From an uncultured Gemmatimonadaceae bacterium (lineage in GTDB: Bacteria > Gemmatimonadota > Gemmatimonadetes > Gemmatimonadales > GWC2-71-9), in the NCBI GenBank assembly GCA_964629425.1, contig CAZVSO010000005.1, forward strand, positions 1 through 35,392: a DNA stretch of 35,392 nucleotides, read 5' to 3'. This document shows positions 8,072-33,298 of the stretch, piece after piece; position 1 is the stretch's first letter, and each line of letters begins with the position of its first letter. Below the pieces are notes generated by a model that saw only the letters and a list, made by a program, of their open reading frames with translations, had not been told where the DNA came from and did no database searches. The position numbers and the translations under genes are program-made.

Positions 8072-8755
8072 ATGAGCGCAGCAATCGGACGGACCGGATG
8101 GCAGCTGGGTGTCGCCGCCGCACTCGTGCTGACCGTGGCACCCTCGGCGAGCGCGCAGCTCCGCGAGGTTCGCGAAGCGGGGACCGCGGGATTGGGCTTC
8201 ATTGTGGCGCGGCCGGTCGGCGAGTTCCGTGGCTTCACCGGCACCCGCGGCGGCTTCGCTGTCGAAGCCACCGCGGGCCTGCCCATCGGCCTGCGAGTGG
8301 CCGGATCGGCGCTGTTCTACGACCACCGCTACGACCTGGGCCCAGGGACGGGCCGTGTGGAGACCCACAGTCTCATCGCGTCGCTCGGGCTGGGCCCGCA
8401 GCTGACGATCAGCGCGGGACCCCTCAAGCTATACGGATACGGCACCATCGGCGGCGGCTACTTCACGACCTGGTTCGGCGGCGACTGCGGCTGCGGTGGC
8501 TACGGCAGCAGCTCGACGCTCGACGATTTTGCGCTCGCGCGTGAAGTCGGGGGCGGCGTGCAGCTGCGGGTCAGCGGCAGCCGCTCGCCCGTCTACCTCC
8601 ATCTCGCCGGCCGCTACGTAGACCACGATGCCGCTCGCTACGTCGTCGAGAACGGTGTTACGGCCTCGAGCGACGGCTCGATCAGCGTGCAGACCGTCGA
8701 GCGTGGGGTGCAGCTCGCGGTGGTGCAGGTCGGCGTATCCATAGGATTGAAATAG
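8072..8755 (+). CDS. Small outer-membrane beta-barrel protein (OmpA/OmpW-like size class), uncharacterised
   Basis: ATG 8072 is preceded by a GAGGGG-rich stretch. Signal peptide MSAAIGRTGWQLGVAAALVLTVAPSASAQ; Gly/aromatic-rich strands. The ORF track start at 7985 adds a non-signal-like extension, so 8072 is preferred. Confidence 0.6.
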   Translation: MSAAIGRTGWQLGVAAALVLTVAPSASAQLREVREAGTAGLGFIVARPVGEFRGFTGTRGGFAVEATAGLPIGLRVAGSALFYDHRYDLGPGTGRVETHSLIASLGLGPQLTISAGPLKLYGYGTIGGGYFTTWFGGDCGCGGYGSSSTLDDFALAREVGGGVQLRVSGSRSPVYLHLAGRYVDHDAARYVVENGVTASSDGSISVQTVERGVQLAVVQVGVSIGLK

Positions 8756-8960
8756 ACGCACGGACGGGTAGAAGGGACAGATCACAGCAGACGCGGCAAA
8801 GCTAGACGCGTAGACGCAACAGACGCACAGCGGTGAACCGGTGGTGGGATTCAGGCAGACCTGCTCACTACGACCTGTTCTCGCCTGTGCGTCTACGCGT
8901 CTGTGCGTCTAGCTTTGCCGCGTCTGATCTCCGAAACAGCCGACCTGCCGTCCCGTAGTC
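8752..8960. repeat. Intergenic palindromic element built from AGACGC-containing octamers (long imperfect inverted repeat with a ~54-nt centre)
   Basis: CAGACGCGGCAAAGCTAGACGC (8788-8809) is the perfect reverse complement of 8905-8926. AGACGCACAG (8821-8830) pairs with CTGTGCGTCT (8885-8894). AGACGC occurs 5 times on the left (8754, 8789, 8804, 8812, 8821) and GCGTCT 4 times on the right (8889, 8897, 8905, 8919). Confidence 0.65.
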
Positions 8961-8966
8961 CCTGCC

Positions 8967-9719
8967 ATGCCGGTTGCGTCGCTGGAACAGAAGCTGAACG
9001 CCCTGAAGCGCGAGGCGCGGCGCGACTGGGAGAAGCGCGTGGCGGAGCGGGCGCAGGCCATCCCGGCCCGCCGCGCGATGCCCCGGCCGGCGGCCCTCGC
9101 CACCGCTGTCACGGCGGCGTTCGTGAAGCTGGGGATCGCCGTCGTCCTGCCGTTCGTCGTGCTGGTGCGGGGCGCTGTCGCCCTGTATGGGGACCGGGGG
9201 TGGTCGACCTGGCCGGCGCTCGCGGGCGGTGCCGGACTCGCGCTCGCGGTCGTCACGTTCTACAGCGGCTGGCTCTCCCGCCGGCTGACCGGGCGCGCCC
9301 GGCTGACGCTGGTGGCCCGGTGGGTCGCCCTGCCGCTCGTGGCCTGCTGGTGCGGCTATACGCTCGTCTACGTCGCGAGCGTCAACGCGAAGAGCGAGGC
9401 CGTGCGCGCCGAGTACACCGCGACCCACCCGCTCCTGCGGGTCGCCCTCGCGACCCTGATCCTCGCCGACAGCGACCTCATGATCACTGACCTGCGCCGG
9501 GTGCCCGCGGACTATCCGCGCATGGGCCTCCCGGTGAACGACCGCACCCGGCACTACCACCAGGCCGATGGGTGGGCGCATGCGGTCGACCTGCGGACCA
9601 TCGGGCGCGGGGAGGTGAAGAACCGCCTGGTGCAGGTCTATTTCGAGCTGATAGGCTTCGCCACCCTCCAGCATACGGGCACCGCGGACCACCTGCACGT
9701 CCAGCTGCCGGTCCGCTAG
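8967..9719 (+). CDS. Membrane protein (about 3 TM) with a C-terminal domain carrying LAS/peptidase-M15-like His/Asp motifs (tentative)
   Basis: Hydrophobic segments AALATAVTAAFVKLGIAVVLPFVVLV, WPALAGGAGLALAVVTFYSGWL and WVALPLVACWCGYTLVYV. The C-terminal region reads ITDLRR...RHYHQADGWAHAVDLRT...TADHLHVQL, reminiscent of the H..G.A.D and H.H zinc ligands of D-Ala-D-Ala-carboxypeptidase-like enzymes. The family call is weak. Confidence 0.45.
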   Translation: MPVASLEQKLNALKREARRDWEKRVAERAQAIPARRAMPRPAALATAVTAAFVKLGIAVVLPFVVLVRGAVALYGDRGWSTWPALAGGAGLALAVVTFYSGWLSRRLTGRARLTLVARWVALPLVACWCGYTLVYVASVNAKSEAVRAEYTATHPLLRVALATLILADSDLMITDLRRVPADYPRMGLPVNDRTRHYHQADGWAHAVDLRTIGRGEVKNRLVQVYFELIGFATLQHTGTADHLHVQLPVR

Positions 9720-9836
9720 GTCCTCCGGGCCCGCGCCTTCCCCGGCGGTCCGGCCGGGCCATAAGGACCGTCCGCCATAGCGCCGGGCGACCGCGCACAT
9801 CATCATTGGGCGGGTCGGACATCCCCTGCGGAGCTC

Positions 9837-10280
9837 ATGATGGACTACACCGCCGCCGACTGGCAAGCCGAGATGGGCGCGCTGCGCACGGCGCACGCGC
9901 CGCCTCCCACCTGTCCGCACTGCCGCCGGACGGGCTTCTACGGCCCGCGGCAGGACGAGGGGCACCGCCGCTTTCGCATGTGCAAGTTCTGCGGGTTCAC
10001 CCAGGACGTGGACCAACCCCCGGTGTTCTACGTCGCGACCGCGCACGCGTGCGACGCCTGGCGTCGTGTGGCCGGGGCGCCCTACATCTGGTGGGTGAGC
10101 CCGGCGGCCGAGGCCTACGCGTGCGCGTACTGCCGCTCGAGCGTGACCGTGCAGAGCGCCCGGATCGCGAAGCCGTCCGACGATCCGTCGCATCCGTGGT
10201 GGCAGGTGCCGCAGGGGCTATCGTACAAGGAGTCGCTCGCCTACTGGGAGGCCCAGGGCTACTACCGGCCCTTCATGTGA
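9837..10280 (+). CDS. Cysteine-rich Zn-ribbon protein, uncharacterised
   Basis: CPHC-x19-CKFC forms a four-Cys ribbon, and there is a later CAYC pair. No signal peptide or TM. The TGA stop (10278-10280) overlaps the GTG start of the next gene. Confidence 0.6.
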   Translation: MMDYTAADWQAEMGALRTAHAPPPTCPHCRRTGFYGPRQDEGHRRFRMCKFCGFTQDVDQPPVFYVATAHACDAWRRVAGAPYIWWVSPAAEAYACAYCRSSVTVQSARIAKPSDDPSHPWWQVPQGLSYKESLAYWEAQGYYRPFM

Positions 10281-11548
10281 GCCGATCCATCCACGCCGCC
10301 GTCCTCGCGACGGCCCTCGGCCTGCCGGGAGGCGCCGTGGCCCAGGACGCCGGCGCGACCCCCGCCGTGTTCCGTCGCTTCGCGGACCAGGTCGTGAAGC
10401 TCGAGGTGGTCGAGCGCGGCTCCGGCGCGAAAGCCGAGCTGGGCTCCGGCTTCTGGGTGAGCCCCGACGGCCGGCTCGTGACCAACTACCACGTGATCGC
10501 CAAGCTGGTGCACGACCCGGATCGCTACCACGTCGAGGTGGTGGACCGGGCCGGCACGCGGCGCCGCGGGAGCGTCCTGGCCGTGGACGTGGTGCACGAC
10601 CTGGCGGTGGTCGAGGTCGCGCACCGGCCCCCCGGGTTTTTCCGGCTGGGCGCCGCGCGGATCGCGCAGGGGCAGCGACTCTACTCGCTGGGCCACCCGC
10701 ACGACCTCGGCCTCTCGATCGTCGAGGGCACGTACAACGGCCCTCTGCGGCACACGCTGCACGAGCGGATCCACTTCACCGGGTCGCTCAACCCCGGGAT
10801 GAGCGGCGGCCCCGCGATCACCGGCGCCGGCGTGGTCGTCGGGGTCAACGTCGCGACCGCGGGCAACCAGCTCAGCTTTCTGGTGCCGGTGGATCGGGCG
10901 GCGGCGCTGCTCGCCGCCCAGACGCGGGCGGCCGGCCGGCCCGCCGACAGCCTGCTCGCCGACGTCGGGCGCCAGCTGCATAGCTATCAGGACGAGTATG
11001 TGCGGAGCCTGTTCAGCGGGGCCGACTCCGCGGTCGTGCTGGGCCCGTATCGCCTGCCGACGCAGCCTGCGCCATTCTTCAACTGCTGGGCCGACGCCGA
11101 GCGCGACGAAGACGAGCCCTACGAGATCGTCTATCACGAGTGCTCGACGGACGACTACGTGTTCGTCTCCCGGGACCACTCGTCCGGCTTGCTGAGCATC
11201 GAGCATCGTCTGGTCACGAGCGACCGGCTGAACCGGTTCCGCTTCGCCGCACTCTATACGAATCAGTTCCAGGAGCTGGCCTGGGCGCCTGACGCGAGCA
11301 AGGACGACGTCACGCCGTTCCGCTGCGCCAACCGCAACGTGCGCCGGGACACGCTGACCTTCCGCACCGTGTTCTGCGTCCGCCGCTACCGCAAGTTCGC
11401 CGGGCTGTACGACGCCGTGATGCGTGCGGCGGCGCTGGGAGAGCCCGACCGCGGGCTCGTGACCACGCTGACGCTGTCCGGCGTCAGTTACGCCAACGCG
11501 CGGCTGCTCGCCCAGCGCTATCTGGAGCGCATCGCGTGGGCCCGGTGA
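10277..11548 (+). CDS. Secreted trypsin-like (S1/Trypsin_2-type) serine protease with a ~210-aa C-terminal domain of unknown family
   Basis: GTG 10277 gives the signal-like N-terminus VSRSIHAAVLATALGLPGGAVAQDAG. Catalytic triad context: TNYHVI (His), HDLAVVEV (Asp), GMSGGP (Ser). The C-terminal half (from about SLLADVGRQL) has 4 Cys and no motif I recognise. The upstream 235 codons of the ORF track entry (9572) are Arg/Pro/Gly-rich and rejected. Confidence 0.85.
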   Translation: MSRSIHAAVLATALGLPGGAVAQDAGATPAVFRRFADQVVKLEVVERGSGAKAELGSGFWVSPDGRLVTNYHVIAKLVHDPDRYHVEVVDRAGTRRRGSVLAVDVVHDLAVVEVAHRPPGFFRLGAARIAQGQRLYSLGHPHDLGLSIVEGTYNGPLRHTLHERIHFTGSLNPGMSGGPAITGAGVVVGVNVATAGNQLSFLVPVDRAAALLAAQTRAAGRPADSLLADVGRQLHSYQDEYVRSLFSGADSAVVLGPYRLPTQPAPFFNCWADAERDEDEPYEIVYHECSTDDYVFVSRDHSSGLLSIEHRLVTSDRLNRFRFAALYTNQFQELAWAPDASKDDVTPFRCANRNVRRDTLTFRTVFCVRRYRKFAGLYDAVMRAAALGEPDRGLVTTLTLSGVSYANARLLAQRYLERIAWAR

Positions 11549-12513
11549 TCTTCGTCGAGGTGCTCGATCGCCGGGGACACGTGGCCGCCAGAGCGCGGCT
11601 GGAGACGCTTCCGGCGATCGTGGGTCGAGGCTACGGCAGCACGGTCATCCTGGATGACCGCTACGTCAGCCCGGAGCACGCTCGGATCGCGCGCGACGAG
11701 GCCGGCGCGCTCGTGGTCGAGGATCTCGGCAGCACCAATGGGGTGTTCGACGCGGTCAGCGGCGAGCGGTTGTCCCGCGTCGCCCTGCGGCCCGGCCTGC
11801 AGCTGCGGGTCGGGCGGACCGTCGTGCGCTTTAGCTTCGCCGATCAGCCCGTCCCCGCCGCGCTGCCGGACCCGGCGATCACCGGCCTCGGGCGCGTGCT
11901 GGCCTCCCGCAGGACCGTGCTGGGCGTGTGCGTGGCCGCGCCGCTCCTGGTGGCGTGGCAGTCGTATCTGGGGGACTACGGCCGGGTGAGCTTCGCCGAG
12001 CCCGTGAGCGCGGCGCTCGTCAGCGTGCTGCTGCTCGCCATCTGGGCCGGGGGCTGGGCGTTCGCGTCTCGGGTGTTGGTGCACCGCCCGCAGTTCCTCT
12101 CGCATCTCGCCGTGGCGTCCGCCGGGCTGATCGCCGGCATGGCGCTCAGCACCGTGACCTCCTACGCCGAGTTCCTGCGCCCGTCCCAGCCCGGCATGTC
12201 CGGCGTCGCGGCCGTGGGCTTGGTCGGCCTCGGAGCGGCGGTGCTGTATGGCCACCTGACGCTCGCATCCTCGATGCTGCAGCGGCGTCGCGCCGTGGCG
12301 GCCGCGCTCGTGGCCGTCGCCCTCTCCGGGGTCGCCGAGCTGGTGGAGCAGGCCGACCGTGACGAGAGCGTCGACACCCTCGAGTTCTCGGGCGTCCTCA
12401 AGCCGGTGGGAACCCGCTGGCTGCGCAGCACCTCTCTTGAGTCGTTCCTCGGCGAGGTGGACCGGTTGCAGGCCCGCGCGGATTCGCTGGCGGTGAAGAA
12501 GCGGGAGCCGTGA
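11536..12513 (+). CDS. FHA-domain protein fused to about 5 transmembrane helices
   Basis: FHA signature IVGRGYGSTVILDDRYVSPEHARIARDEAGALVVEDLGSTNGVF, followed by five hydrophobic segments. GTG 11536 or GTG 11545 overlaps the protease stop (11546-11548) by 13 or 4 nt. Confidence 0.85.
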   Translation: MGPVIFVEVLDRRGHVAARARLETLPAIVGRGYGSTVILDDRYVSPEHARIARDEAGALVVEDLGSTNGVFDAVSGERLSRVALRPGLQLRVGRTVVRFSFADQPVPAALPDPAITGLGRVLASRRTVLGVCVAAPLLVAWQSYLGDYGRVSFAEPVSAALVSVLLLAIWAGGWAFASRVLVHRPQFLSHLAVASAGLIAGMALSTVTSYAEFLRPSQPGMSGVAAVGLVGLGAAVLYGHLTLASSMLQRRRAVAAALVAVALSGVAELVEQADRDESVDTLEFSGVLKPVGTRWLRSTSLESFLGEVDRLQARADSLAVKKREP

Positions 12514-12514
12514 T

Positions 12515-13753
12515 CTACGGCCGGTACGAGGGCAGCTCGACCACGTAGGCGTTCACCGTGTTGCTGCCACCCCAGTCGCTGCCGAACAGCAGCCGTGTCC
12601 CGCTGGGGCTCGGTACCACGTGCGGCTCGGCCCAGTACCCCAGCGGGCCGCTTTGCCCCCAGGAGCGGTGGTGGGCCACGCGGCACACCGCGCCCCCCGG
12701 GTTCGTGTCGGCCATGTACAGCTCGTTGTTCAGCACCGCCTGGCCGTCCGGCGTCGCGCCGATGCTCGAGACGGACACCCACGCCGGCCGGCGGTACGCC
12801 ACCGCCGACACGTGCGTACCGGACGGCGGGTAGGGGTAGCCGGTCGCGGGTCCCACGACGACGCGAGCGCGCGCGTCCGTCAGGTCGTGCGTGACGAGCG
12901 AGCCGATGTGGTTGCCCCCGAACGAGACGGTGTTGTAGGTGTCGTGGCCGTTCGCCAGTCGCCCCAGCGAAGCGTGCTCCTGCGGGTTGTCCACGTCGAG
13001 GCTCCGCAGCAGGGTCATCGAGGCGTCCAGCACGTCCCCCATGAGGTAGAAGAGCCCGCCGCTCGGGCCGGCCTGTGGCGCCACGTCGAGCGTCGTGGCC
13101 AGACGCGGGCCCTCCGTCCCCGTCCCGACGTCGTAGGCGAAGACCTCGCGCTGCGCCACCGTTTGCCGGCACGTCAGCCCGATCGCCCGCGAGTCCCAGG
13201 AGGTGAACATGGGGTCGTTGCCACTGGTCACATCGCCCGGGCAGGCGAAGGTGTGTAGCGTGTCCTTCGTTGCCGCCGCCACGTGATAGCGCACGAGCGC
13301 TCGCTGCGAGCGATTCACGTAGTAGAGGATGTCCGGGTCCGACGTGTGCCAGTAGACCTGCTCGAGATCCGCCGGCTCGATGTCGAGGACCCGGATGAAC
13401 TGGTAGGTGCGGCCGTCGTACAGCTCGTGGCGGCCGCCCACGTCGCCGGTGTGGTAGAGGATGAGGTACGACTCGTTCGCGTTCCAGGCGGGGATGGTCG
13501 AGTACATCGGCTTGAGCACGCCGCCGGCGCCGACATCGCTGATCCTCCGGATGGTCGTGCCGAATTCCGGGTCGGTCACCGCCGCGCCGACCGCTGGCCG
13601 CGCCAGCGGGGTCATGGCGTGCGGGTCCTTGTCGGTGACCAGGTTCTGGCAGAGATCGGGCGGCGGCTCGCTCGGCTCCGTGCCCGCGCAGGCGAGGGTG
13701 AGGATCGTTGCCAGCAGAATCTCGCGCGACCGCGAGGGAATCGAAGCGTGCAT
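12515..13753 (-). CDS. Uncharacterised secreted protein or possible lipoprotein, beta-propeller-like composition
   Basis: ATG at 13753 gives MHASIPSRSREILLATILTLACAG, a signal peptide with a possible lipobox Cys. The body has repeated W/Y-containing strand-like blocks. The extra 72 codons in the ORF track (to 13969) overlap yifB and are rejected. Confidence 0.6.
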   Translation of the reverse strand: MHASIPSRSREILLATILTLACAGTEPSEPPPDLCQNLVTDKDPHAMTPLARPAVGAAVTDPEFGTTIRRISDVGAGGVLKPMYSTIPAWNANESYLILYHTGDVGGRHELYDGRTYQFIRVLDIEPADLEQVYWHTSDPDILYYVNRSQRALVRYHVAAATKDTLHTFACPGDVTSGNDPMFTSWDSRAIGLTCRQTVAQREVFAYDVGTGTEGPRLATTLDVAPQAGPSGGLFYLMGDVLDASMTLLRSLDVDNPQEHASLGRLANGHDTYNTVSFGGNHIGSLVTHDLTDARARVVVGPATGYPYPPSGTHVSAVAYRRPAWVSVSSIGATPDGQAVLNNELYMADTNPGGAVCRVAHHRSWGQSGPLGYWAEPHVVPSPSGTRLLFGSDWGGSNTVNAYVVELPSYRP

Positions 13754-13891
13754 GACGGCAGGAGTATGGGCGGAGCGGCGCCGCCGGACGGTGATCGATG
13801 ACCCCTGCCAAGTGCTCGCCTCGCGTAGGTTTTCCCCCCCACGGCAATCGTTCGGTACCGGCTCCGGCGCCGAACGCCCCCATCTTGAATC

Positions 13892-15427
13892 ATGCTCGCC
13901 CGCGTCCGCTCGGCCGCGGTGCTCGGGATTGACGCCTACCTGGTGGACGTCGAGACCGACATCGCCCACGGCCTGCCCACCTTCGTCACCGTCGGACTGC
14001 CGCAGGGGGCGGTGAAGGAGGGGCGCGACCGGGTGTTCGCCGCGCTGGTCAACACGGGCTACGAGTTCCCGTTACGCAGGATTACCGTCAACCTCGCCCC
14101 GGCCGACATCCGCAAAGAAGGCTCCGCGTTCGATCTGCCCATCGCGGTCGGCATTCTTGCCGCCACGGGGCAGATCGCGAGCGAGCGGCTGGCGCGCGTG
14201 GCGGTGCTCGGCGAGCTGGGACTCGAGGGCGCGATCCGGCCGATCCGCGGGGCGCTCCCGGTCGCGCTGGCGGCTCGGCAGGCGGGGCTCGAGACCTTGG
14301 TGCTGCCGCGCGACAACCTGCCGGAGGCCGGCGTGGTCTCGGGGATCCGGGTGCTGGGCGCCTCGAGCCTGGCCGAGCTCGCGGCGTTCTTCGACGGCCG
14401 GGCGGAGCTGCCGGGCGCCGAGGTCGACGTGGCGAGCCTGTTCGCGCAAACGTCGCGCGACGACGTCGATTTCGCCGAGGTCAAAGGGCAGCAGCACGCC
14501 AAGCGCGCGCTGGAGGTGGCCGCCGCGGGCGGGCACAACATCCTGATGGTCGGCCCCCCGGGCTCGGGCAAGACCATGCTGGCGCGCCGGCTGCCGACCA
14601 TTCTGCCGCGCATGAGTCTCGACGAGGCGCTGGAGACCACGAAGATCCACTCGGTGGCGGGGGTCCTGCCGCTCGGCGAATCGCTGGTAGCGCGGCGGCC
14701 GTTCCGGGCGCCGCACCACACGATCTCGGACGCCGGGTTGATCGGCGGGGGAGCCTATCCGCGGCCGGGGGAGGTGAGCCTGGCGCACGGCGGTGTGCTG
14801 TTCCTCGACGAGCTGCCGGAGTTCCGCAAGAACGTGCTCGAGGTGCTGCGCCAACCGATGGAGGACGGGGTGGTGACGATCGCCCGGGCGGCGATGAGCT
14901 TGAGCTACCCCGCGCGGTTCATGCTGGCGGCCGCGATGAACCCCTGTCCCTGCGGTTATTACGGCGACCCGCAGCACAGCTGCTCCTGCGGTCCGCTGTT
15001 GGTGCAGCGCTACCTCGCGCGGGTATCGGGGCCGCTGCTCGACCGGATCGACATCCACCTCGAGGTCCCGGCGGTGAAGTACCGCGCGCTCGCCGAGCAG
15101 GACGGTGCCGAGCCGGGCGAGGCGGTGCGCGAGCGGGTGGACCGGGCGCGGGTGGTGCAGCGGGAGCGCTTCGTCGAGCGGCCGGGGATCTACGCCAACG
15201 CGCACATGGCGCCGCGCGACATTCGCGTGCACTGCCGGGTGTCGGATGGCGCGGACGCCCTGTTGCGGACGGCGATCACCCGCCTCGGGCTTTCGGCGCG
15301 GGCGTACCACCGCATCCTGAAGATCGCGCGGACCATCGCGGACCTGGATGGCGCGGCGGGGCTCGAGCCGAAGCACGTGAGCGAGGCGATCCAGTACCGG
15401 AGTTTGGATCGGCGCAGGGTGGGGTGA
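13892..15427 (+). CDS. yifB: YifB/ComM family Mg-chelatase-like AAA+ ATPase
   Basis: N-terminal Lon-protease-like ChlI domain (SAAVLGIDAYLVDVE...GLPTFVTVGLP, INLAPADIRKEGSAFDLPIAVGILAA). Walker A GPPGSGKTM; Walker B VLFLDELPEF; Cys cluster NPCPCGYYGDPQHSCSC; C-terminal RAYHRILKIARTIADLDG. Confidence 0.95.
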   Translation: MLARVRSAAVLGIDAYLVDVETDIAHGLPTFVTVGLPQGAVKEGRDRVFAALVNTGYEFPLRRITVNLAPADIRKEGSAFDLPIAVGILAATGQIASERLARVAVLGELGLEGAIRPIRGALPVALAARQAGLETLVLPRDNLPEAGVVSGIRVLGASSLAELAAFFDGRAELPGAEVDVASLFAQTSRDDVDFAEVKGQQHAKRALEVAAAGGHNILMVGPPGSGKTMLARRLPTILPRMSLDEALETTKIHSVAGVLPLGESLVARRPFRAPHHTISDAGLIGGGAYPRPGEVSLAHGGVLFLDELPEFRKNVLEVLRQPMEDGVVTIARAAMSLSYPARFMLAAAMNPCPCGYYGDPQHSCSCGPLLVQRYLARVSGPLLDRIDIHLEVPAVKYRALAEQDGAEPGEAVRERVDRARVVQRERFVERPGIYANAHMAPRDIRVHCRVSDGADALLRTAITRLGLSARAYHRILKIARTIADLDGAAGLEPKHVSEAIQYRSLDRRRVG

Positions 15428-15431
15428 GCCC

Positions 15432-15472
15432 TTGAGCGCGGATGCCTCTTTGATGCATATTGGTACATATGC
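15432..15472 (+). promoter_or_regulatory. AT-rich putative promoter/operator of vapBC-1 with leaderless geometry
   Basis: TTGAGC (15432-15437), an 18-nt spacer, then CATATT (15456-15461), with ATG at 15469. Inverted repeat GCATAT (15455-15460) / ATATGC (15467-15472) spans the -10 and the start codon. This is one of very few AT-rich patches in the window. Confidence 0.35.
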
Positions 15473-15681
15473 GCACGACCCTCAACATCGACGACGCGCT
15501 CTTGGCTGAGGCGATGCGGTTGACCGGGATGGGGGAAAAGACGGCGGTGGTCCGGGCGGGCCTTGAGGCCCTGATCGCTCGGGAGAACGCTCGGCGGCTC
15601 GCCGCGCTTGGCGGGAGTGAGCGGGCGCTCCGCCCGGTGCCCCGTCGCCGTCCAGCCTCCAAGAGGCGACCGCGCCGGTGA
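15469..15681 (+). CDS. vapB: Type II antitoxin, VapB family (MRTTLNIDD-type)
   Basis: MRTTLNIDDALLAEAMRLTG..KTAVVRAGLEALIARE is the typical N-terminus of VapB antitoxins paired with PIN toxins. The stop overlaps the vapC GTG (GTGA at 15678-15681). Confidence 0.85.
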   Translation: MRTTLNIDDALLAEAMRLTGMGEKTAVVRAGLEALIARENARRLAALGGSERALRPVPRRRPASKRRPRR

Positions 15682-16040
15682 TCCTCGCCGACACATCGGT
15701 CTGGGTGGACCATTTTCGGCACGCCAGCCCCGCGCTCGCATCCCACCTGATCCACGGGCGGATCGCCTGCCACGCCTTCGTCATCGGTGAGCTCGCCCTC
15801 GGCAATCTCAGCAACCGCTCGGAGATCCTCACTCGCCTGAGCGACCTGCCACAGCTCCCGGTGGCCGGTCACCCCGAGGTGCTGGAGCTCGTGGAGCGCC
15901 GCCGGCTGATGGGGACGGGCATCGGGTGGATGGACGCGCACCTCTTGGCGGCGGTGGTGCTCGCGGGCGCGACGCTGTGGACCCTCGATGCCCCGCTCGC
16001 CCGCATCGCGCGCCGGCTCCGGGTTGCGGCAGCCGGCTAG
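15678..16040 (+). CDS. vapC: Type II toxin VapC, PIN-domain ribonuclease
   Basis: ILADTSVWVDHFR (first acidic residue), FVIGELALG, and a C-terminal WMDAHLLA...TLWTLD pattern typical of PIN/VapC. Confidence 0.85.
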   Translation: MILADTSVWVDHFRHASPALASHLIHGRIACHAFVIGELALGNLSNRSEILTRLSDLPQLPVAGHPEVLELVERRRLMGTGIGWMDAHLLAAVVLAGATLWTLDAPLARIARRLRVAAAG

Positions 16041-16043
16041 GGT

Positions 16044-16391
16044 TCAGCCGCGTCGTCCTGGGGTCGCCCCAGCCCTGTCCGTGCGGCTACCACGGCGATC
16101 CCCAGCACAACTCCTCCTGCGGCTCGGTTGCTCGTGCAGCGCTACCTCGCGCGCGTCTCGGGGCCGCTGCTCGACCGGATCGACATCCACCTCGAGGTCC
16201 CCGCGGTGAAATACCGGGCCCTGGCCGACCAGGACGGTGGCGAGCCGGGCGAGGCCGTGCGCGAGCGGGTGGATCGGGCACGGGTGGTGCAGCGGGAGCG
16301 CTTCGTCGAGCGGCCGGGCGTCTACGCCAACGCGCACATGGCGCCGCACGACATCCGCGCGCACGCCGACACGCTGAGCTGGCAGCATTGA
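16044..16391 (+). pseudogene. Frameshifted internal fragment of a second yifB/comM copy (corresponds to about residues 345-450 of the intact gene)
   Basis: Nt 16073-16362 align with 14942-15232 of the intact yifB at about 89% identity by my hand count, with a 1-nt indel near 16125. Translations PCPCGYHGDPQH... and LVQRYLARVSGPLLDRIDIHLEVPAVKYRAL...RERFVERPG.YANAHMAP fall in two different frames. It lacks both the AAA+ core and the last ~60 codons. Confidence 0.85.
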
Positions 16392-16392
16392 G

Positions 16393-16427
16393 TTGACTAA
16401 GTCATCTAGCTTAGCTAACATGTATCG
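16393..16427 (+). promoter_or_regulatory. Sigma70-like promoter plus palindromic operator of the phd/vapC-2 module, leaderless geometry
   Basis: TTGACT (16393-16398), a 17-nt spacer, then TAACAT (16416-16421), then 6 nt to ATG 16428. Palindrome TAGCT-T-AGCTA (16407-16417) lies within the spacer and -10. There is no Shine-Dalgarno sequence. Confidence 0.5.
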
Positions 16428-16676
16428 ATGAAAAAGCGCGGCCCCAAGTCGTACAACGTTCACGAGGCGAAGACCCATCTTTCCCGCCTGCTCGACCAGG
16501 TGGCGGCCGGAGAGGAAGTCGTCATCGCCAAAGCCGGTGTCCCGGTGGCGCGCCTGGTGCCAGTCGTGTTGCCGGTGGATCAGCGCCCACTGGGCACCGA
16601 GAAGGGCCGCGTCTTCATCGCCGACGACTTCGACGCCCCGCTCCCGGCGGAGGTGCTGAACAGCTTCGAGACGTGA
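16428..16676 (+). CDS. Type II antitoxin, Phd/YefM family
   Basis: YNVHEAKTHLSRLLDQVAAGEEVVIAKAGVPVARLVP is the Phd/YefM N-terminal fold signature. The stop overlaps the toxin GTG (16673). Confidence 0.85.
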   Translation: MKKRGPKSYNVHEAKTHLSRLLDQVAAGEEVVIAKAGVPVARLVPVVLPVDQRPLGTEKGRVFIADDFDAPLPAEVLNSFET

Positions 16677-17105: not shown

Positions 17106-19745
17106 ATGAGCGATCCCTTGAGCGCGGTCTCCCGACTGTCGGCTGCCCTCGCCGACCGCTACCGCATCGAGCGGGAGCTGGGGCAGGGCGGCATGGCCAC
17201 GGTGTATCTCGCGCACGACGTGCGCCACGACCGCAAGGTGGCGCTCAAGGTCCTGAAGCCAGAGCTCGCCGCCGTGCTGGGCCCGGAGCGGTTTCTCGCC
17301 GAGATCAAGATCACGGCCCGACTCGACCACCCGCACATCCTGACGCTGATCGATTCCGGGGCGAGCGAGGGCTTCCTCTATTACGTGCTGCCCTACGTCC
17401 GCGGAGAATCGCTGCGCGACAAACTGGACCGGGAGAAGCAACTCGGCCTCGACGAAGCGCTCACCATCACGAAGCAGGTGGCGAGCGCGCTCGACTACGC
17501 GCACCGCCAGGGCGTGGTGCACCGCGACATCAAGCCCGAGAACATCCTGCTCCAGGAAGGCGAGGCGATGCTGGCGGACTTCGGGATCGCGCTGGCCGTG
17601 AAGCAGGCGGGCGGCAACCGGCTCACCGAAACCGGCCTCTCGCTCGGCACGCCGCAGTACATGAGCCCGGAGCAGGCCACGGGAGACCGCCAGCTCGACG
17701 CGCGCTCGGATGTCTATTCGCTGGGCGCCGTGTTGTACGAGATGCTGGCGGGAGAGCCGCCGGTGTCGGGCCCGACGGCGCAGGCCATGATCGCCAAGCT
17801 GTTGACGGAGCGGCCGACGCGCCTGCGTGTGGTTCGGGACGGCGTGCCGGAGGGTGTCGACCAGGCGGTGGCCAAGGCGTTGGCCAAGACTCCTGCCGAC
17901 CGGTTTTCCGGTGCGGGCGAGTTCGTCGCCGCGCTCCAGCACGCGACGAGGGCAGTGGCCCCGCCGTCGACTATGACGTGGCGCCGGCGCAACGTGCTGT
18001 TCGGAGTCGCCGCAGCGGTGACCGTCGTCGTCCTGGCGTTCGGGGCCTATCGCGTGATGCGCGCTCGTCCGCCGAGCTTCGCCCTGGGACGCTCCGAGCA
18101 GCTCACCGCTGACCCGGGCCTCGAGATTCAGCCCGCGCTTTCACCCGACGGGAGGGTGGTCGTATACGCCGCCGGAAACGCCGTGCGGATGCGGATCTTC
18201 ATTCGGCCGGTGGGCGGAGGCCGAACGCTTCCCTTGACGGACGATTCCACGGCCGTCGAAGCACAGCCACGCTGGTCGCCCGATGGCAACAGCCTCCTGT
18301 TTCTGGCTCGTGGCGGCGTCTCCATCGCGCCGGCACTCGGCGGCGCGTCACGACCCGTCGTGCCGGCGTCGGCCACCGCTTCCGTCGCCACGGCGGCCTG
18401 GTCCTCGGATGGCCGCGAGATCGCGTTCGTTCGCGCCGAATCCTTGCTCGTGGCTCCGGTCGACGGCGGCCCGCCCCGCCTCCTCGCGACTGCTTTCGAC
18501 CTGCATTCCTGTACCTGGTCGCCGGCCGGGAGATGGATCGCGTGCGTCACCTTGAACGCCGAGTCGGTGCTTCCCGGCATCTCGTTCGGCAATCTCGCCC
18601 CGAGCGCCATCTTGCTGTTTCCGGCCGCCGGCGGCGCTCCCGTCCGCCTGGTCGAGCCACAAGCGTTCAACCAGAGTCCCGTCTGGACGCCGGACGGTCG
18701 GCAGCTGCTCTTCATCTCCAATCGCGATGGTCCGCGCGATGTGTATGCGATGACGCTCGCGTCGTCCGGTCGGCCGCACGGCCCGCTGAATCGCCTCACG
18801 ACCGGGCTCGGCGCGATCTCGATTTCGCTATCGGCGGACGGCCGGCGGCTGGCGTACGCGGTGTATTCGGCACGGGCCAACATCTGGTCGCTGCCCATCC
18901 CGTCGGGCGCCCCCATCACGGCTGACCGCGCGATACCCCTCACCAGCGGTAGCCAGGTGATCGAAGCGATGCATGTGTCGCGCGACGGCCGCTGGCTGCT
19001 GTACGACTCGAACCTGCGCGGTAACTCGGACATCTACCGCATTCCCTTGGGCGGCGGTCCGGCCGAGCGGCTCACCGACGACCCGGCCGATGAATTCGCG
19101 GCGGATCTTTCGCCCGACGGCCGTGCCATCACGTATCACTCGTGGCGCACCGGAACGCGGGACATCGAAGTCAAGCCGCTCGACGGTGGACCCGTGGAGC
19201 GCGTCACCGCGACGCCGGCGCAGGAGAGCTACCCGCGCTGGGCCCCCGACGGTCGGGCGATCGCGTTCTTCAACCAAGTGCTGCCATTCTCCCTCTTCAT
19301 CACGCGTAGAGAAGCCAGCGGGCGTTGGTCCACCCCCATGCTGATCGGCTCGAAGATCGTGGGCAACGCCTGGTCCCCGGATGGGCTTTCCATCACCTAT
19401 GTCGAGGCCGAATCCGACAGGCGGTCCGGTGCGGTGATGGTCGTGCCGGCCGACGGTGGCCGCCCGCGCCGCGTGTTCGATCCTACACCGACGGCGCCAC
19501 CGGCCGAACAGGCCGAGTGGGGTCCCGACGGCCGGACGCTGTACTACAAGGCGCACGACTCCCAGGGACGGGCATCGTTCTGGGCGGTGAGCGCCGCGGG
19601 TGGACGACCACGCCAGCTGGTCCGGTTCGACGATCTCAACCGACCGTCGTCGCGCAGGGACTTCGCGACGGACGGGAAGCGGTTCTATTTCGCGATCGAG
19701 GACCGTCAGAGCGACGTGTTCGTGGCGGAGTTGATCTCCAGGTGA
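17106..19745 (+). CDS. Hanks-type Ser/Thr protein kinase, single TM, periplasmic TolB-like (PD40/WD40-like) beta-propeller
   Basis: Kinase motifs GQGGMATVYLA, VALKVL, HRDIKPENILL, DFGIA, GTPQYMSPEQ. TM NVLFGVAAAVTVVVLAFGAY. About 10 repeats of the (W/L)SPDGR type downstream. Confidence 0.9.
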   Translation: MSDPLSAVSRLSAALADRYRIERELGQGGMATVYLAHDVRHDRKVALKVLKPELAAVLGPERFLAEIKITARLDHPHILTLIDSGASEGFLYYVLPYVRGESLRDKLDREKQLGLDEALTITKQVASALDYAHRQGVVHRDIKPENILLQEGEAMLADFGIALAVKQAGGNRLTETGLSLGTPQYMSPEQATGDRQLDARSDVYSLGAVLYEMLAGEPPVSGPTAQAMIAKLLTERPTRLRVVRDGVPEGVDQAVAKALAKTPADRFSGAGEFVAALQHATRAVAPPSTMTWRRRNVLFGVAAAVTVVVLAFGAYRVMRARPPSFALGRSEQLTADPGLEIQPALSPDGRVVVYAAGNAVRMRIFIRPVGGGRTLPLTDDSTAVEAQPRWSPDGNSLLFLARGGVSIAPALGGASRPVVPASATASVATAAWSSDGREIAFVRAESLLVAPVDGGPPRLLATAFDLHSCTWSPAGRWIACVTLNAESVLPGISFGNLAPSAILLFPAAGGAPVRLVEPQAFNQSPVWTPDGRQLLFISNRDGPRDVYAMTLASSGRPHGPLNRLTTGLGAISISLSADGRRLAYAVYSARANIWSLPIPSGAPITADRAIPLTSGSQVIEAMHVSRDGRWLLYDSNLRGNSDIYRIPLGGGPAERLTDDPADEFAADLSPDGRAITYHSWRTGTRDIEVKPLDGGPVERVTATPAQESYPRWAPDGRAIAFFNQVLPFSLFITRREASGRWSTPMLIGSKIVGNAWSPDGLSITYVEAESDRRSGAVMVVPADGGRPRRVFDPTPTAPPAEQAEWGPDGRTLYYKAHDSQGRASFWAVSAAGGRPRQLVRFDDLNRPSSRRDFATDGKRFYFAIEDRQSDVFVAELISR

Positions 19746-22390: not shown

Positions 22391-22392
22391 CC

Positions 22393-22441
22393 GTGGCCGA
22401 TCCTCTCGACCGCCCTACCGCCGCCCTCGCCGACCGCTACT
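22393..22441 (+). pseudogene. 16-codon 5' stub of a kinase paralog (MADPLDRPTAALADRY) truncated at the conserved ADRY|RIEREL junction
   Basis: GTG 22393 sits 2 nt after the paralog-2 stop, where a tandem paralog would start. The first 16 codons match the family N-terminus (..LSAALADRY), after which similarity ends abruptly. The rest of the 61-aa ORF has no kinase similarity. Confidence 0.55.
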
Positions 22442-22608
22442 CCACGACGCTTGAAACCGTCCGCCCCATAGCACTGGCCGAGATCCGGGAAGCACGCGCG
22501 CGCTATGTGGAGAGGGACTGCTGGCGCGGCGAGAGCCGGTGCGGTGAGGTCCTTGCGGGGGGTGGTCTGAGCGTCTAGACTTATATACGACTTTATAGAA
22601 AGCATGAC

Positions 22609-22860
22609 ATGGCTATTAGTATCAAGGATCCCGAGACCGACCGCCTCGCCCGCGCCCTTGCCGCCGCCACGGGCGAGTCGCTGACCGAGGCGATTCGTCG
22701 CGCGCTCCGCGACCGGCTCGAACGCGAATCGCACCGCTCCCGGCGCGGCATCGGCGTCGAAATCCGGCGGATCCAGGAGCGCCTCGCCAGGTTGCGCGTG
22801 CTCGACCGGCGAGCGCCCGAGGAGATCGTGGGCTACGACGAGCATGGCCTCCCGCATTGA
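22609..22860 (+). CDS. vapB: Type II antitoxin, VapB/FitA-like (MAISIKDPETDRLAR-type)
   Basis: MAISIKDPETDRLARALAAATGESLTEAIRRALRDRLERE is the typical N-terminus of the VapB family paired with FitB-like PIN toxins. It is preceded by an AT-rich patch (22576-22608). Confidence 0.8.
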   Translation: MAISIKDPETDRLARALAAATGESLTEAIRRALRDRLERESHRSRRGIGVEIRRIQERLARLRVLDRRAPEEIVGYDEHGLPH

Positions 22861-22863
22861 CCC

Positions 22864-23256: not shown

Positions 23257-23305
23257 GTCCGCATGGCCGATGCCATCTCACCATCTTCTTGAGAGAGGTT
23301 CCAGG

Positions 23306-33189: not shown

Positions 33190-33298
33190 CGGCTGCAATA
33201 TACAGCTCCGGGGCCCGGTGCGGGCGGCATCCGCCGCCGCTGGCGACGGGGTTGGCGCGCCCCTAGCTTCGGAACTCACGCTCACTCCGGCGGCCCTC

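What the first reader, a model, noticed from the sequence alone, without database searches (positions are those of the whole stretch)
8967..12513. Candidate uncharacterised trans-envelope module: Zn-ribbon protein / secreted S1 protease with novel C-terminal domain / FHA-multipass membrane protein, preceded by a membrane LAS-like peptidase
Three genes are linked by overlapping stop/start codons: GTGA at 10277-10280, and a 4- or 13-nt overlap at 11536-11548. This implies stoichiometric co-translation.

Their predicted locations span the envelope:
- a soluble four-Cys Zn-ribbon protein (cytoplasm)
- a signal-peptide-bearing trypsin-like protease with an intact His/Asp/Ser triad (periplasm); its ~210-aa Cys-containing C-terminal half matches no family I recognise
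- a protein with a cytoplasmic FHA (phospho-Thr reader) domain fused to about 5 TM helices

A same-strand upstream gene encodes a 3-TM protein with a putative LAS/M15-like peptidase domain facing outward. Four Hanks kinases lie in the same window and no PP2C phosphatase is visible. One inferred model is that kinase-generated pThr marks are read by the FHA membrane protein to gate or anchor the periplasmic protease. I know of no described system with this gene trio.
Basis: partly seen in the sequence, partly recalled or inferred. Interest (0 to 1): 0.7.

Follow-up and report, generated by a model that had tools for sequence, protein, structure and literature searches.

The report
Conserved protease–FHA membrane protein gene pair
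The proposed three- or four-gene envelope system is really a two-gene unit, a secreted serine protease with an unclassified extra domain always encoded next to a membrane protein carrying a phospho-threonine-reader domain; the pair is found in many bacterial phyla, appears unstudied, and may link signalling inside the cell to protein cutting outside it.

Summary

The trio is not a conserved unit:
- The Zn-ribbon gene (B) and the 3-TM gene (A) occur upstream of the protease only in close relatives of this genome.
- Both are absent from 80 of 80 GTDB loci and 79 of 80 metagenome loci that carry the protease.
- B homologues elsewhere have no protease or FHA gene nearby.

What is conserved is a pair. 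C (10277-11548) is a PDZ-less HtrA-type protease. D (11536-12513) has an FHA domain, five TM helices and a periplasmic tail.
- C and D are adjacent in 79 of 80 loci found via C and 77 of 80 found via D. The exceptions are contig ends or one partial hit.
- The loci carry at least nine phylum-level labels. Nothing else nearby is conserved.

The protease C-terminal domain has no Pfam family and always sits behind this protease. Its model is distantly PsbP/Mog1/Eag-like. No paper on the pair was found.

Proposed mechanism (inferred): D docks or regulates C through its conserved periplasmic tail, coupling the cytoplasmic FHA domain to periplasmic proteolysis.

Verdict: new variant of a known kind, moderate interest.

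The parts
10277..11548 (+). Gene C: secreted PDZ-less HtrA-type (S1C-like) serine protease, 423 aa. Core member 1 of the conserved pair.
   Evidence: Trypsin_2 at E 9e-26. More than 3400 homologues. Adjacent to D in 79 of 80 and 77 of 80 loci.
10277..10345 (+). Predicted Sec signal peptide of C (aa 1-23; MSRSIHAAVLATALGLPGGAVAQ|D). No lipobox Cys.
   Evidence: Read from the sequence. Homologues share a hydrophobic N-terminus ending in A-Q. Cleavage is inferred, not computed.
10358..10912 (+). Protease domain of C (aa ~28-212). Catalytic His72 at 10490-10492, Asp108 at 10598-10600, Ser176 at 10802-10804.
   Evidence: The triad is invariant in 24 homologues. Best PDB sequence matches are DegP, HtrA2, DegS and AlgW, over aa 23-230 only.
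10919..11545 (+). C-terminal domain of C (aa 215-423). Alpha/beta sandwich with four invariant Cys (C270, C289, C350, C367). It occupies the position a PDZ domain has in HtrA proteins.
   Evidence: No Pfam or NCBIfam hit. 530 cluster representatives, with the match almost always at the C-terminal end of the protein; full-length hits are about 415-455 aa. AF2 pLDDT 88. Foldseek best matches are PsbP, Mog1, SciW/EagT6, Apa and LpqN, with TM 0.4-0.45.
11536..11548 (+). C stop / D start overlap (13 nt from GTG 11536, or 4 nt GTGA from GTG 11545).
   Evidence: The first possible D start overlaps the C stop by 4-16 nt in at least 49 of 79 loci.
11536..12513 (+). Gene D: FHA, 5-TM and periplasmic-tail inner-membrane protein, 325 aa. 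Core member 2 of the conserved pair.
   Evidence: Reciprocal adjacency.
11548..11838 (+). Cytoplasmic FHA domain of D (aa 5-101). G30, R31, S45, H48, S66 and N68 are all present in this protein.
   Evidence: PF00498 at E 9e-12. Foldseek matches to GarA, FhaA and OdhI FHA domains, target-normalised TM ~0.8. Residue conservation.
11908..12360 (+). Five-helix TM bundle of D (aa 125-275). W170, W174, R179, H190 and H240 are conserved near the predicted cytoplasmic face.
   Evidence: AF2 pLDDT ~90. Conservation over 62 sequences from several phyla. No consistent Pfam family.
12361..12510 (+). Predicted periplasmic C-terminal tail of D (aa 276-325): a flexible segment with an F..[FY]...[LVI]-K-P motif, then an amphipathic helix at 301-322 (F304, L311, D316). 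Proposed docking or cleavage site for C.
   Evidence: Topology follows the positive-inside rule read on the sequence. Helix, motif conservation. Interaction with C is inferred.
9837..10280 (+). Gene B: small cytoplasmic protein with two zinc sites, 147 aa. Not part of the conserved pair; a lineage-specific upstream neighbour whose stop overlaps the C start.
   Evidence: 17 homologues in 5.8 billion proteins. Invariant C26, C29, C49, C52, H70, C72, C96, C99. Homologues elsewhere have no protease or FHA gene nearby. Absent from 80 of 80 and 79 of 80 C-D loci.
8967..9719 (+). Gene A: 3-TM protein, 250 aa, with a C-terminal H196-x4-D201...H242-x-H244 motif. Not part of the conserved pair; a lineage-specific upstream neighbour.
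   Evidence: No family hit. Found upstream of C-D only in close relatives. A 60%-identical homologue lies near a B homologue, without C-D, in L081 and L083.

Best explanation
**Shown**
- The functional unit is a two-gene, translationally coupled envelope module, C plus D.
- C is a secreted serine protease of the HtrA/DegS type with an intact His-Asp-Ser triad.
- In C the usual C-terminal PDZ domain is replaced by a ~210-aa domain specific to this family. That domain has four invariant Cys and a predicted fold distantly like PsbP/Mog1/Eag protein-binding modules.
- D is an inner-membrane protein with an N-terminal FHA domain, a five-helix membrane bundle and a conserved ~50-aa C-terminal tail.
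- The FHA domain is predicted to be cytoplasmic and the tail periplasmic.
- C and D are inherited together across many phyla and nothing else around them is conserved.

**Inferred**
- The periplasmic tail of D binds the C-terminal domain of C.
- This tethers the protease at the inner membrane and sets its activity.
- The protein the FHA domain engages in the cytoplasm is then coupled to periplasmic proteolysis. In this genome that is probably a pThr site made by a Hanks kinase.

Genes A and B are lineage-specific upstream neighbours. They may be co-transcribed here but are not components of the module.
For: **Pairing**
- C and D are adjacent in 79 of 80 GTDB loci found with C. The exception is cut by a contig end.
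- C sits immediately upstream of D in 77 of 80 metagenome loci found with D. Two exceptions start inside D and one is an FHA-only partial hit.
- The loci are labelled Gemmatimonadota, Binatia, Myxococcota, Acidobacteriota, Desulfobacterota/delta, Beta- and Gammaproteobacteria, Verrucomicrobiia, Nitrospiraceae and Chloroflexota.
- The stop/start overlap of 4-16 nt recurs in at least 49 of 79 loci.
- Pairwise identities of C and D correlate at r = 0.91; 0 of 999 Mantel permutations reached this.
- No other gene cluster is shared by more than 14 of 80 loci.
- The commonest family among upstream neighbours is found in 6 of 74 loci, and among downstream neighbours in 9 of 67.

**Architecture**
- Triad invariant, four Cys invariant, signal peptide present.
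- The C-domain match lies almost always at the C-terminal end of the protein; full-length hits are about 415-455 aa.
- C-domain model pLDDT 88; PsbP, Mog1 and SciW/EagT6 are the top folds.
- D model pLDDT 90, with FHA, five TM helices and a terminal helix.
- Loop charges follow the positive-inside rule, placing the tail outside (read from the sequence).
- The tail motif is conserved across phyla although D averages only 31% identity.

**A and B excluded**
Against: - No physical interaction was tested. Multimer modelling was not available.
- The C-domain fold match is weak (TM 0.39-0.45, rmsd about 8 Å), so the 'binding module' reading is only a lead.
- The canonical FHA Ser (S45) is Ser in only 19 of 62 family members (Asp 25, Cys 13, Ala 4). 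pThr dependence may not be general.
- The most conserved residues of the D membrane domain (R179, H190, H240) appear to lie at the cytoplasmic face, not the periplasmic face. The membrane domain may therefore have a function of its own.
- The high C-D identity correlation is largely expected from shared phylogeny.
- No kinase or phosphatase is a conserved neighbour.
Confidence: 0.55

Rival explanations
1. D is the substrate rather than the anchor, in a DegS-RseA-like proteolytic signalling switch. An envelope cue sensed by the C-terminal domain of C activates the protease. The protease clips the periplasmic tail of D. This destabilises or re-configures D and changes what its cytoplasmic FHA domain holds, giving outside-in signalling.
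For: - C is closest in sequence to DegP, DegS, AlgW and HtrA2 proteases.
- The tail of D has a low-confidence, flexible stretch (aa 276-300, pLDDT 53-65) before a conserved helix, which would be an accessible site.
- The obligate pairing fits an enzyme with a dedicated substrate as well as it fits an anchor.
Against: - Known regulated-proteolysis substrates are single-pass proteins, whereas D has five TM helices.
- There is no sigma-factor or anti-sigma domain and no conserved site-2 protease nearby.
- No cleavage evidence exists.
Confidence: 0.25
2. This is the first reader's model: a three- or four-component trans-envelope system in which the Zn-ribbon protein B (and the membrane protein A) work stoichiometrically with C and D.
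For: - A, B, C and D lie on the same strand with no predicted terminator between 8600 and 12700.
- The B/C GTGA overlap is kept in relatives with 90% and 98% identity.
- A and B homologues lie near each other in a second lineage.
Against: - A and B are absent from 80 of 80 GTDB and 79 of 80 metagenome C-D loci.
- A 66%-identical Gemmatimonadota relative has an opposite-strand Kelch gene in their place.
- B has only 17 homologues, and those examined have no protease or FHA gene nearby.
- 4-nt overlaps are common between unrelated neighbours.
Confidence: 0.07
3. C-D is an anti-phage or conflict (abortive-infection type) module, or an accessory of a secretion system such as the T6SS. The FHA domain would act as in TagH/Fha and the protease as an effector.
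For: - The C protease domain weakly matches PADLOC RT-Protease_XI and PDC-M35A models.
- TA modules and a DUF559 nuclease-like gene are in the window.
- 2 of 67 downstream neighbours are VgrG-like.
- NCBIfam gives weak FHA similarity to TagH and GltG.
Against: - The PADLOC hits cover only the generic protease fold. D, A and B have none.
- The C-domain has no match on 72,556 plasmids or 50,697 phage records.
- Neighbourhoods are mostly metabolic or housekeeping genes and differ between loci.
- C and D identities co-vary across the loci (r = 0.91) and no variable effector domains are attached.
Confidence: 0.05
4. C and D are merely operon neighbours with independent functions: a general periplasmic quality-control protease and an unrelated FHA membrane scaffold.
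For: No direct interaction data exist. HtrA-type proteases often act as general quality-control enzymes.
Against: Reciprocal, near-obligate adjacency holds across at least nine phylum-level labels, with a conserved start/stop overlap, while every other neighbour changes. The C-domain is never seen in another architecture.
Confidence: 0.08

Closest known systems
DegS-RseA (and AlgW-MucA) envelope-stress proteolysis, HtrA/S1C family
   Same: - Periplasmic chymotrypsin-fold protease with a His-Asp-Ser triad. DegP, DegS, AlgW and HtrA2 are the best sequence matches.
- The protease carries a C-terminal non-catalytic domain.
- The partner is an inner-membrane protein with a cytoplasmic signalling domain and a periplasmic segment.
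   Different: - No PDZ domain; a PsbP/Mog1-like domain with four invariant Cys sits in its place.
- No N-terminal membrane anchor on the protease.
- The partner has five TM helices and an FHA domain rather than being a single-pass anti-sigma factor.
- The two genes are fused into one overlapping operon unit.
MarP (Rv3671c) of Mycobacterium tuberculosis, the 'Colicin_V-Tryp' architecture
   Same: A multi-pass membrane module is coupled to an extracytoplasmic S1 protease domain. NCBIfam MarP_fam_protase matches C at E 6e-12, below its cut-off. The architecture is listed in PMC2605481.
   Different: - MarP is one polypeptide (four TM helices plus protease); here the membrane module is a separate protein.
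- MarP has no FHA domain and no PsbP-like domain.
- The D membrane domain gives no CvpA/Colicin_V hit.
Membrane proteins with cytoplasmic FHA domains: FipA/FhaB (Rv0019c), Rv1747, YscD/MxiG/PrgH, TagH/Fha
   Same: An FHA domain sits at the cytoplasmic face of the inner membrane. The best NCBIfam hit is FhaB_Rv0019c at E 4e-16, over the FHA part only. Foldseek matches GarA, FhaA and Rv1747 FHA domains.
   Different: - Different membrane part: five helices plus a conserved periplasmic tail, with no Pfam family.
- Different partner: a protease.
- The canonical phosphate-binding Ser is often substituted in the family, as in the non-pThr-binding YscD/MxiG type.
PsbP / Mog1 / DUF1795 (Eag chaperones SciW, EagT6) / LpqN-Mtc28-Apa fold
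   Same: The predicted alpha-beta-alpha sandwich of the C-terminal domain gives these as top Foldseek hits (E 6e-4 to 6e-3, probability 0.9-1.0). These are non-catalytic binding modules, and Eag proteins clamp hydrophobic helices.
   Different: - TM-scores are only 0.39-0.45 and sequence identity 7-14%.
- The invariant Cys pairs and the conserved H287-x-C-S-T-D-D, H310 and R-R-Y-R motifs have no counterpart that I tested.
FHA-FHA-Trypsin fusion protein of Bacteroides thetaiotaomicron (NP_811686.1)
   Same: FHA and trypsin-like domains combined in one gene product, reported in a domain-architecture survey (PMC2605481). This is a Rosetta-stone-type hint that FHA and S1 proteases can work together.
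   Different: Known to me only from that table. It was not retrieved or compared here. The domain order and probably the family differ, and no C-domain or 5-TM module is reported.

Membership tests
HtrA / S1C (DegP-DegQ-DegS) proteases | Chymotrypsin-fold protease domain with a His-Asp-Ser catalytic triad | tested here: met
   Trypsin_2 at E 9e-26. H72, D108 and S176 invariant in 24 homologues. PDB matches to DegP, HtrA2 and DegS.
HtrA / S1C (DegP-DegQ-DegS) proteases | At least one C-terminal PDZ domain | tested here: not met
   No PDZ hit in Pfam or NCBIfam. All NCBIfam HtrA-type models score far below their cut-offs and match only aa ~25-213. The C-terminal domain model is an alpha/beta sandwich of PsbP/Mog1 type.
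FHA domain (pThr-peptide reader) | FHA beta-sandwich recognised by PF00498 above the gathering score | tested here: met
   45.7 bits against a cut-off of 20.7. Foldseek target-normalised TM ~0.8 to GarA, FhaA and OdhI FHA domains.
FHA domain (pThr-peptide reader) | Canonical phosphate-contacting residues (Gly-Arg, Ser-x-x-His, Ser/Thr-x-Asn) | tested here: inconclusive
   All are present in the window protein (G30, R31, S45, H48, S66, N68). Across 62 family members R31, H48, S66 and N68 are kept, but position 45 is Ser 19, Asp 25, Cys 13, Ala 4. Binding was not tested.
LAS / peptidase M15 metallopeptidases (claimed for gene A) | Profile or structure match to a LAS family (M15, M23, VanX/VanY, DUF882) | tested here: not met
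   No hit in Pfam at E up to 10 on the soluble domain, in NCBIfam, in a PDB sequence search or in a PDB profile search.
LAS / peptidase M15 metallopeptidases (claimed for gene A) | Zn-ligand signature H-x(3-6)-D ... H-x-H | tested here: inconclusive
   H196-x4-D201 and H242-L-H244 are invariant, but in only four sequences. The motif alone is not diagnostic.
Zinc-ribbon proteins (gene B) | Two CxxC knuckles conserved across homologues | tested here: met
   C26-x2-C29 and C49-x2-C52 are invariant in 15 sequences, and so is a second H70, C72, C96, C99 site. No Pfam family reaches its cut-off.
Known anti-phage defence systems (PADLOC-DB 2.0) | System-specific protein models matched by the components | tested here: not met
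   Only the generic protease fold of C matches (RT-Protease_XI and PDC-M35A, partial). A, B and D have no hit. No plasmid or phage copies of the C-domain were found.
DegS-RseA type regulated intramembrane proteolysis | Single-pass anti-sigma substrate, with its sigma factor and a site-2 protease in the pathway | tested here: not met
   D has five TM helices and no anti-sigma domain. No sigma factor or S2P gene is a conserved neighbour. Pathway partners encoded elsewhere are not testable here.
PsbP / Mog1 / DUF1795 fold (C-terminal domain of C) | Structural superposition with family members at fold level (TM at least ~0.5) | tested here: inconclusive
   Foldseek probability 0.9-1.0, but TM 0.39-0.45 (up to 0.50 on the target) and rmsd about 8 Å.

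The most novel reading that the evidence does not exclude
C-D is an undescribed, phylum-spanning trans-envelope switch. A cytoplasmic FHA domain reads Ser/Thr-kinase phosphorylation, or another cytoplasmic partner. It is wired through a five-helix membrane domain and a periplasmic tail to a dedicated PDZ-less HtrA-type protease. Cytoplasmic phospho-signalling would then directly gate periplasmic proteolysis, or the reverse. This coupling is not known for any bacterial Hanks-kinase/FHA pathway.
Probability: 0.3. Interest if true: 0.75.

Novelty: new variant of a known kind. Interest (0 to 1): 0.55.

Why it matters
- Hanks-type Ser/Thr kinases and FHA readers are abundant in soil phyla such as Gemmatimonadota, Myxococcota and Acidobacteriota, but few of their outputs are known.
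- HtrA-type proteases are central to envelope quality control and stress signalling, and their regulation is understood almost only through PDZ domains.
- This is a near-obligate pair of an FHA membrane protein and a PDZ-less HtrA-type protease with its own family-specific domain. It occurs in at least 593 GTDB loci and 530 clusters at 50% identity.
- It would define a new way of regulating a periplasmic protease, and possibly a direct link between phospho-signalling and envelope proteolysis.
- It also gives two unclassified domains a testable context: the protease C-terminal domain and the 5-TM-plus-tail module.
- Myxococcus and Archangium genomes carry the pair, so it could be tested genetically in Myxococcus if M. 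xanthus itself has it.

Tried and rejected
1. **Trio or quartet synteny.** tblastn of A and B against 80 GTDB and 80 metagenome C-D loci found them only in close relatives. The contexts examined for three B homologues contain no protease or FHA gene.
2. **Other conserved partners.** All-vs-all clustering of ORFs in the 80 loci and Pfam scans of the -1 and +1 neighbours found none, and no kinase or phosphatase among the top families.
3. **Family assignment of the C-domain, the D membrane part, A and B.** Pfam, NCBIfam, PADLOC and PDB sequence searches gave nothing significant.
4. **Fold search of full-length D.** It returned only FHA domains, so the membrane part stays unclassified.
5. **Fusion proteins.** One 556-aa cluster representative (P0220) has Trypsin_2, a partial C-domain and an FHA domain. 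There is no TM segment between the periplasmic and cytoplasmic parts, so I treat it as a frameshift or assembly artefact, not a Rosetta stone.
6. **Mobile-element origin.** The C-domain has no hits on plasmids or phages.
7. **Literature.** Six full-text searches combining FHA with trypsin-like, HtrA, serine protease, Myxococcus or Gemmatimonadetes found no paper on this pair. A Ferrigenium preprint that looked promising concerns an FHA-multiheme cytochrome, which is unrelated.
8. **RNA and regulatory scans of 8600-12700.** No terminator was predicted and only a spurious miRNA-model hit fell on the upstream hairpin.
9. **My GC3-based gene caller.** It often lost D to antisense ORFs. Adjacency counts therefore rest on tblastn, not on those gene calls.

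Full report
**1. Observation**

The window has about 70% G+C. Its proteins match Gemmatimonadota best.
- A: 8967-9719, 250 aa.
- B: 9837-10280, 147 aa.
- C: 10277-11548, 423 aa.
- D: 11536-12513, 325 aa.

The overlaps read directly from the sequence.
- The sequence 'TTC ATG TGA' gives a GTG start for C at 10277, inside the last codons of B.
- 'GCG TGG GCC CGG TGA' lets D start at GTG 11536 or GTG 11545, ahead of the C stop at 11546-11548.
- GTG 10277 is the only start that leaves a signal-peptide-like N-terminus. It agrees with homologue N-termini and with independent gene calls in two relatives.

The domain calls hold.
- C has Trypsin_2 at aa 56-190 and D has FHA at aa 28-93.
- A, B, the C-terminal half of C and the membrane part of D have no family hit.
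- Four protein-kinase genes lie in the window (17106-19745, 19325-22390, 23171-25981 and 29899-33363 on the minus strand). No PP2C was found among the genes scanned.

**2. The trio is not conserved, but a pair is**

The protease has more than 3400 database homologues that align over its full length. The best 80 were fetched. They carry these labels:
- Gemmatimonadota
- Candidatus Binatia
- Myxococcota (including Myxococcus and Archangium)
- Acidobacteriota
- Desulfobacterota/'delta'
- Burkholderiales and Gallionellaceae
- Gammaproteobacteria
- Verrucomicrobiia
- Nitrospiraceae
- Chloroflexota

These are MAG labels and some may reflect binning errors.

Adjacency from the C side:
- tblastn of the window proteins shows a D homologue directly downstream of C in 79 of 80 loci.
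- The one exception ends inside C.
- A and B have no hit in any of the 80 loci.

Adjacency from the D side:
- Eighty metagenome loci were retrieved with an alignment of D homologues.
- C lies immediately upstream in 77 of them.
- Two exceptions begin inside D and one is a short FHA-only match.
- A and B appear only in one close relative, L091.

Neighbourhood:
- All-vs-all clustering of every ORF in the 80 GTDB loci found no other cluster present in more than 14 loci. The larger clusters are antisense shadows of C.
- Pfam scans of the immediate upstream (74) and downstream (67) neighbours gave at most 6 and 9 members for any family. No kinase or phosphatase was among the top families.

Coupling between C and D:
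- In at least 49 of 79 loci the D reading frame opens 4-16 nt before the end of the C stop codon. The mode is 13 nt, as in the window.
- Pairwise identities of C and D across 64 loci correlate at r = 0.91 (Mantel, 0 of 999 permutations). D evolves faster, at 31% mean identity against 48% for C.
- Much of this correlation is shared phylogeny. It still shows that the two genes travel together.

**3. Where A and B belong**

- The order A-B-C-D is present in relatives whose protease is 98% and 90% identical.
- In a 66%-identical Gemmatimonadota relative the local backbone (ispG, tRNA-binding protein, a 235-aa protein) is kept. An opposite-strand Kelch gene stands in place of A and B.
- B has only 17 homologues in 5.8 billion clustered proteins. 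The three whose contexts I fetched have no protease or FHA gene nearby.
- B is nevertheless a real protein. It has invariant C26, C29, C49 and C52, a second H70, C72, C96, C99 site, and an HPWW-x-VPQ motif.
- A 60%-identical A homologue lies two genes upstream of a B homologue in another lineage that lacks C-D at that place. A and B may have a loose association of their own.
- The 'LAS-like peptidase' reading of A rests only on an invariant H196-x4-D201...H242-x-H244 motif in four sequences. Pfam at E up to 10, NCBIfam, and PDB sequence and profile searches give nothing.

**4. Anatomy of C**

- The N-terminus (MSRSIHAAVLATALGLPGGAVAQ|DAG) looks like a Sec signal peptide without a lipobox. Homologues share the hydrophobic stretch ending in A-Q.
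- The protease domain is closest to DegP, HtrA2, HtrA1, DegS and AlgW, but only over aa 23-230. All NCBIfam HtrA, DegS and MarP models score far below their cut-offs.
- His72, Asp108 and Ser176 are invariant.
- There is no PDZ domain.
- Residues 215-423 form a domain found in 530 cluster representatives at 50% identity. The match lies almost always at the C-terminal end of the protein. Full-length hits are about 415-455 aa and shorter hits look like fragments.
- The AlphaFold2 model of this domain (pLDDT 88, pTM 0.86) is a helix-flanked antiparallel sheet.
- Foldseek against the PDB gives PsbP, Mog1, the DUF1795 Eag chaperones SciW and EagT6, and the mycobacterial Apa, LpqN and Mtc28. The scores are E 6e-4 to 6e-3 and probability about 1, but TM only 0.39-0.45. 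I take this as a distant fold resemblance to non-catalytic binding modules, not as membership.
- The four invariant cysteines fall pairwise on neighbouring hairpin strands of the model: C270/C289 and C350/C367 (domain numbering 56/75 and 136/153). This is what two periplasmic disulfides would look like. It is inferred, because I had no access to the coordinates.

**5. Anatomy of D**

- The model (pLDDT 89.8) has an FHA sandwich at aa 5-101 and five TM helices at 125-146, 154-182, 187-214, 221-244 and 249-275.
- A low-confidence stretch at 276-300 precedes a terminal helix at 301-322.
- Arg-rich loops fall before TM1, between TM2 and TM3, and between TM4 and TM5. The other loops and the tail are neutral or acidic. 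This is a positive-inside pattern, read from the sequence, that puts the FHA domain in the cytoplasm and the tail in the periplasm.
- Across 62 sequences from several phyla the conserved residues are:
  - G30, R31, H48, D63, S66 and N68 in the FHA domain;
  - W170, G172, W174, R179, H190, F213, H240 and L241 in the membrane part, mostly towards the cytoplasmic face;
  - a tail motif F278, [FY]284, [LVI]288-K-P290, P297, F304, L311, [VL]315-D316-x-L-A.
- The window protein has all canonical FHA phosphate-binding residues.
- The 'S-x-x-H' serine is Ser in only 19 of 62 members, against Asp 25, Cys 13 and Ala 4. pThr recognition is plausible here but not assured for the family.
- Foldseek with the whole model finds only FHA domains. 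The membrane part has no consistent Pfam hit in five diverse members.

**6. Mechanism**

Shown: there is an obligate, translationally coupled pair. One member is a secreted, catalytically intact S1C-type protease with a private C-terminal domain. The other is an N-in, C-out membrane protein with an FHA domain inside and a conserved tail outside.

Inferred, and my preferred model (confidence about 0.55 including the shown part):
- The tail of D docks into the C-terminal domain of C. This would be comparable to a PDZ domain of DegS taking a peptide, or an Eag chaperone clamping a helix.
- Docking tethers and tunes the protease at the inner membrane.
- The cytoplasmic FHA domain provides the regulatory input or output. 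In this genome that could be pThr marks from Hanks kinases such as the four encoded in this window.

Main rival (about 0.25): D is the dedicated substrate and clipping of its tail signals inward, as in DegS-RseA. My data cannot separate the two models, because both predict the same genomics.

Less likely readings:
- Independent functions (0.08).
- The original trio (0.07).
- A defence or secretion accessory (0.05). PADLOC matches only the generic protease fold. The C-domain is absent from plasmid and phage collections. Neighbourhoods are mostly metabolic or housekeeping genes and differ between loci.

**7. Comparison with known systems and novelty**

- The module works most like HtrA/DegS-type envelope proteases with a regulatory C-terminal domain and a membrane partner.
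- It also resembles MarP-type proteases, where a multipass membrane module is attached to an S1 protease.
- It fails the PDZ criterion for HtrA membership. Its partner is unlike RseA or MucA.
- FHA membrane proteins are known (FipA/FhaB, Rv1747, YscD/MxiG, TagH), but I found none paired with a protease.
- A domain-architecture survey lists a single FHA-FHA-Trypsin fusion in Bacteroides thetaiotaomicron (PMC2605481). That is a lead, not something tested here.
- Six full-text searches found no description of this pair. The library does not cover subscription journals, so absence is not proof.
- I rate it a new variant of a known kind, with two unclassified domains and a wide, unnoticed distribution.

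**8. Verdict**

The Zn-ribbon protein, the putative LAS peptidase and the local kinases are not part of a conserved system.
- Interest: 0.55.

Noticed in passing
window 8753-8926 (intergenic, between the 256-aa ORF ending at 8755 and gene A): A long imperfect hairpin. The arms are 8788-8817 and 8897-8926 (30 nt, 93% complementary), with nested arms built from repeated AGACGC(R) heptamers. It is not repeated elsewhere in the window. Parts of both arms are conserved upstream of gene A in the 90%-identity relative (L086 4546-4666). It gives only a spurious miRNA-model hit in Rfam.
   Followed up: partly
L081 3003-3725 and 5001-5552; L083 1268-1990 and 3266-3817: A 60%-identical homologue of gene A lies two genes upstream of a homologue of the Zn-ribbon gene B. 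A CarboxypepD_reg gene on the opposite strand sits between them. No protease-FHA pair is present at that locus. A and B may therefore have their own weak association, independent of C-D.
   Followed up: partly
window 13892-16676: A ComM/Mg-chelatase-like gene (13892-15427) is followed by a PIN-domain ORF (15678-16040). Next comes an 87-aa fragment that repeats the C-terminal part of Mg_chelatase (16128-16391), then a Phd/YefM antitoxin (16428-16676). This looks like a toxin-antitoxin insertion with a partial duplication of the ComM 3' end. In the 90% relative, PIN and Phd-PIN modules flank the same gene.
   Followed up: no
window 17106-25981 and 29899-33363(-): There are three tandem Hanks-type kinases with C-terminal PD40/WD40 (TolB-like) beta-propeller repeats. 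A fourth has an N-terminal zinc ribbon and six Big_2 Ig-like repeats. This dense receptor-kinase cluster is not conserved next to C-D in other genomes.
   Followed up: partly
P0220 (556-aa cluster representative): An apparent fusion of Trypsin_2, a partial C-domain and an FHA domain. It has no TM segment between the parts, so it is probably a frameshift or assembly read-through of a C-D pair rather than a true fusion.
   Followed up: partly
window 12515-13969 (-): A convergent 484-aa ORF whose stop codon lies 2 nt from the stop of D. It has no Pfam or NCBIfam hit. It is conserved (87%) only in the 98%-identity relative and replaced by PIN toxin genes in the 90% relative. The strip immediately downstream of the pair is therefore highly variable.
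   Followed up: partly
window 11908-12360 (D residues R179, H190, H240, W170, W174): The most strongly conserved residues of the membrane domain are an Arg and two His, near the predicted cytoplasmic ends of TM2, TM3 and TM4, plus a W-x-G-x-W motif in TM2. This hints at a ligand, metal or FHA-docking site at the inner leaflet. None of my models explains it.
   Followed up: no
window 71-3700 (+): A very large (1209-aa) PAS/HisKA/HATPase histidine kinase. Its N-terminal ~850 aa have no family hit and lie in the most G+C-rich part of the window (76-78%).
   Followed up: no
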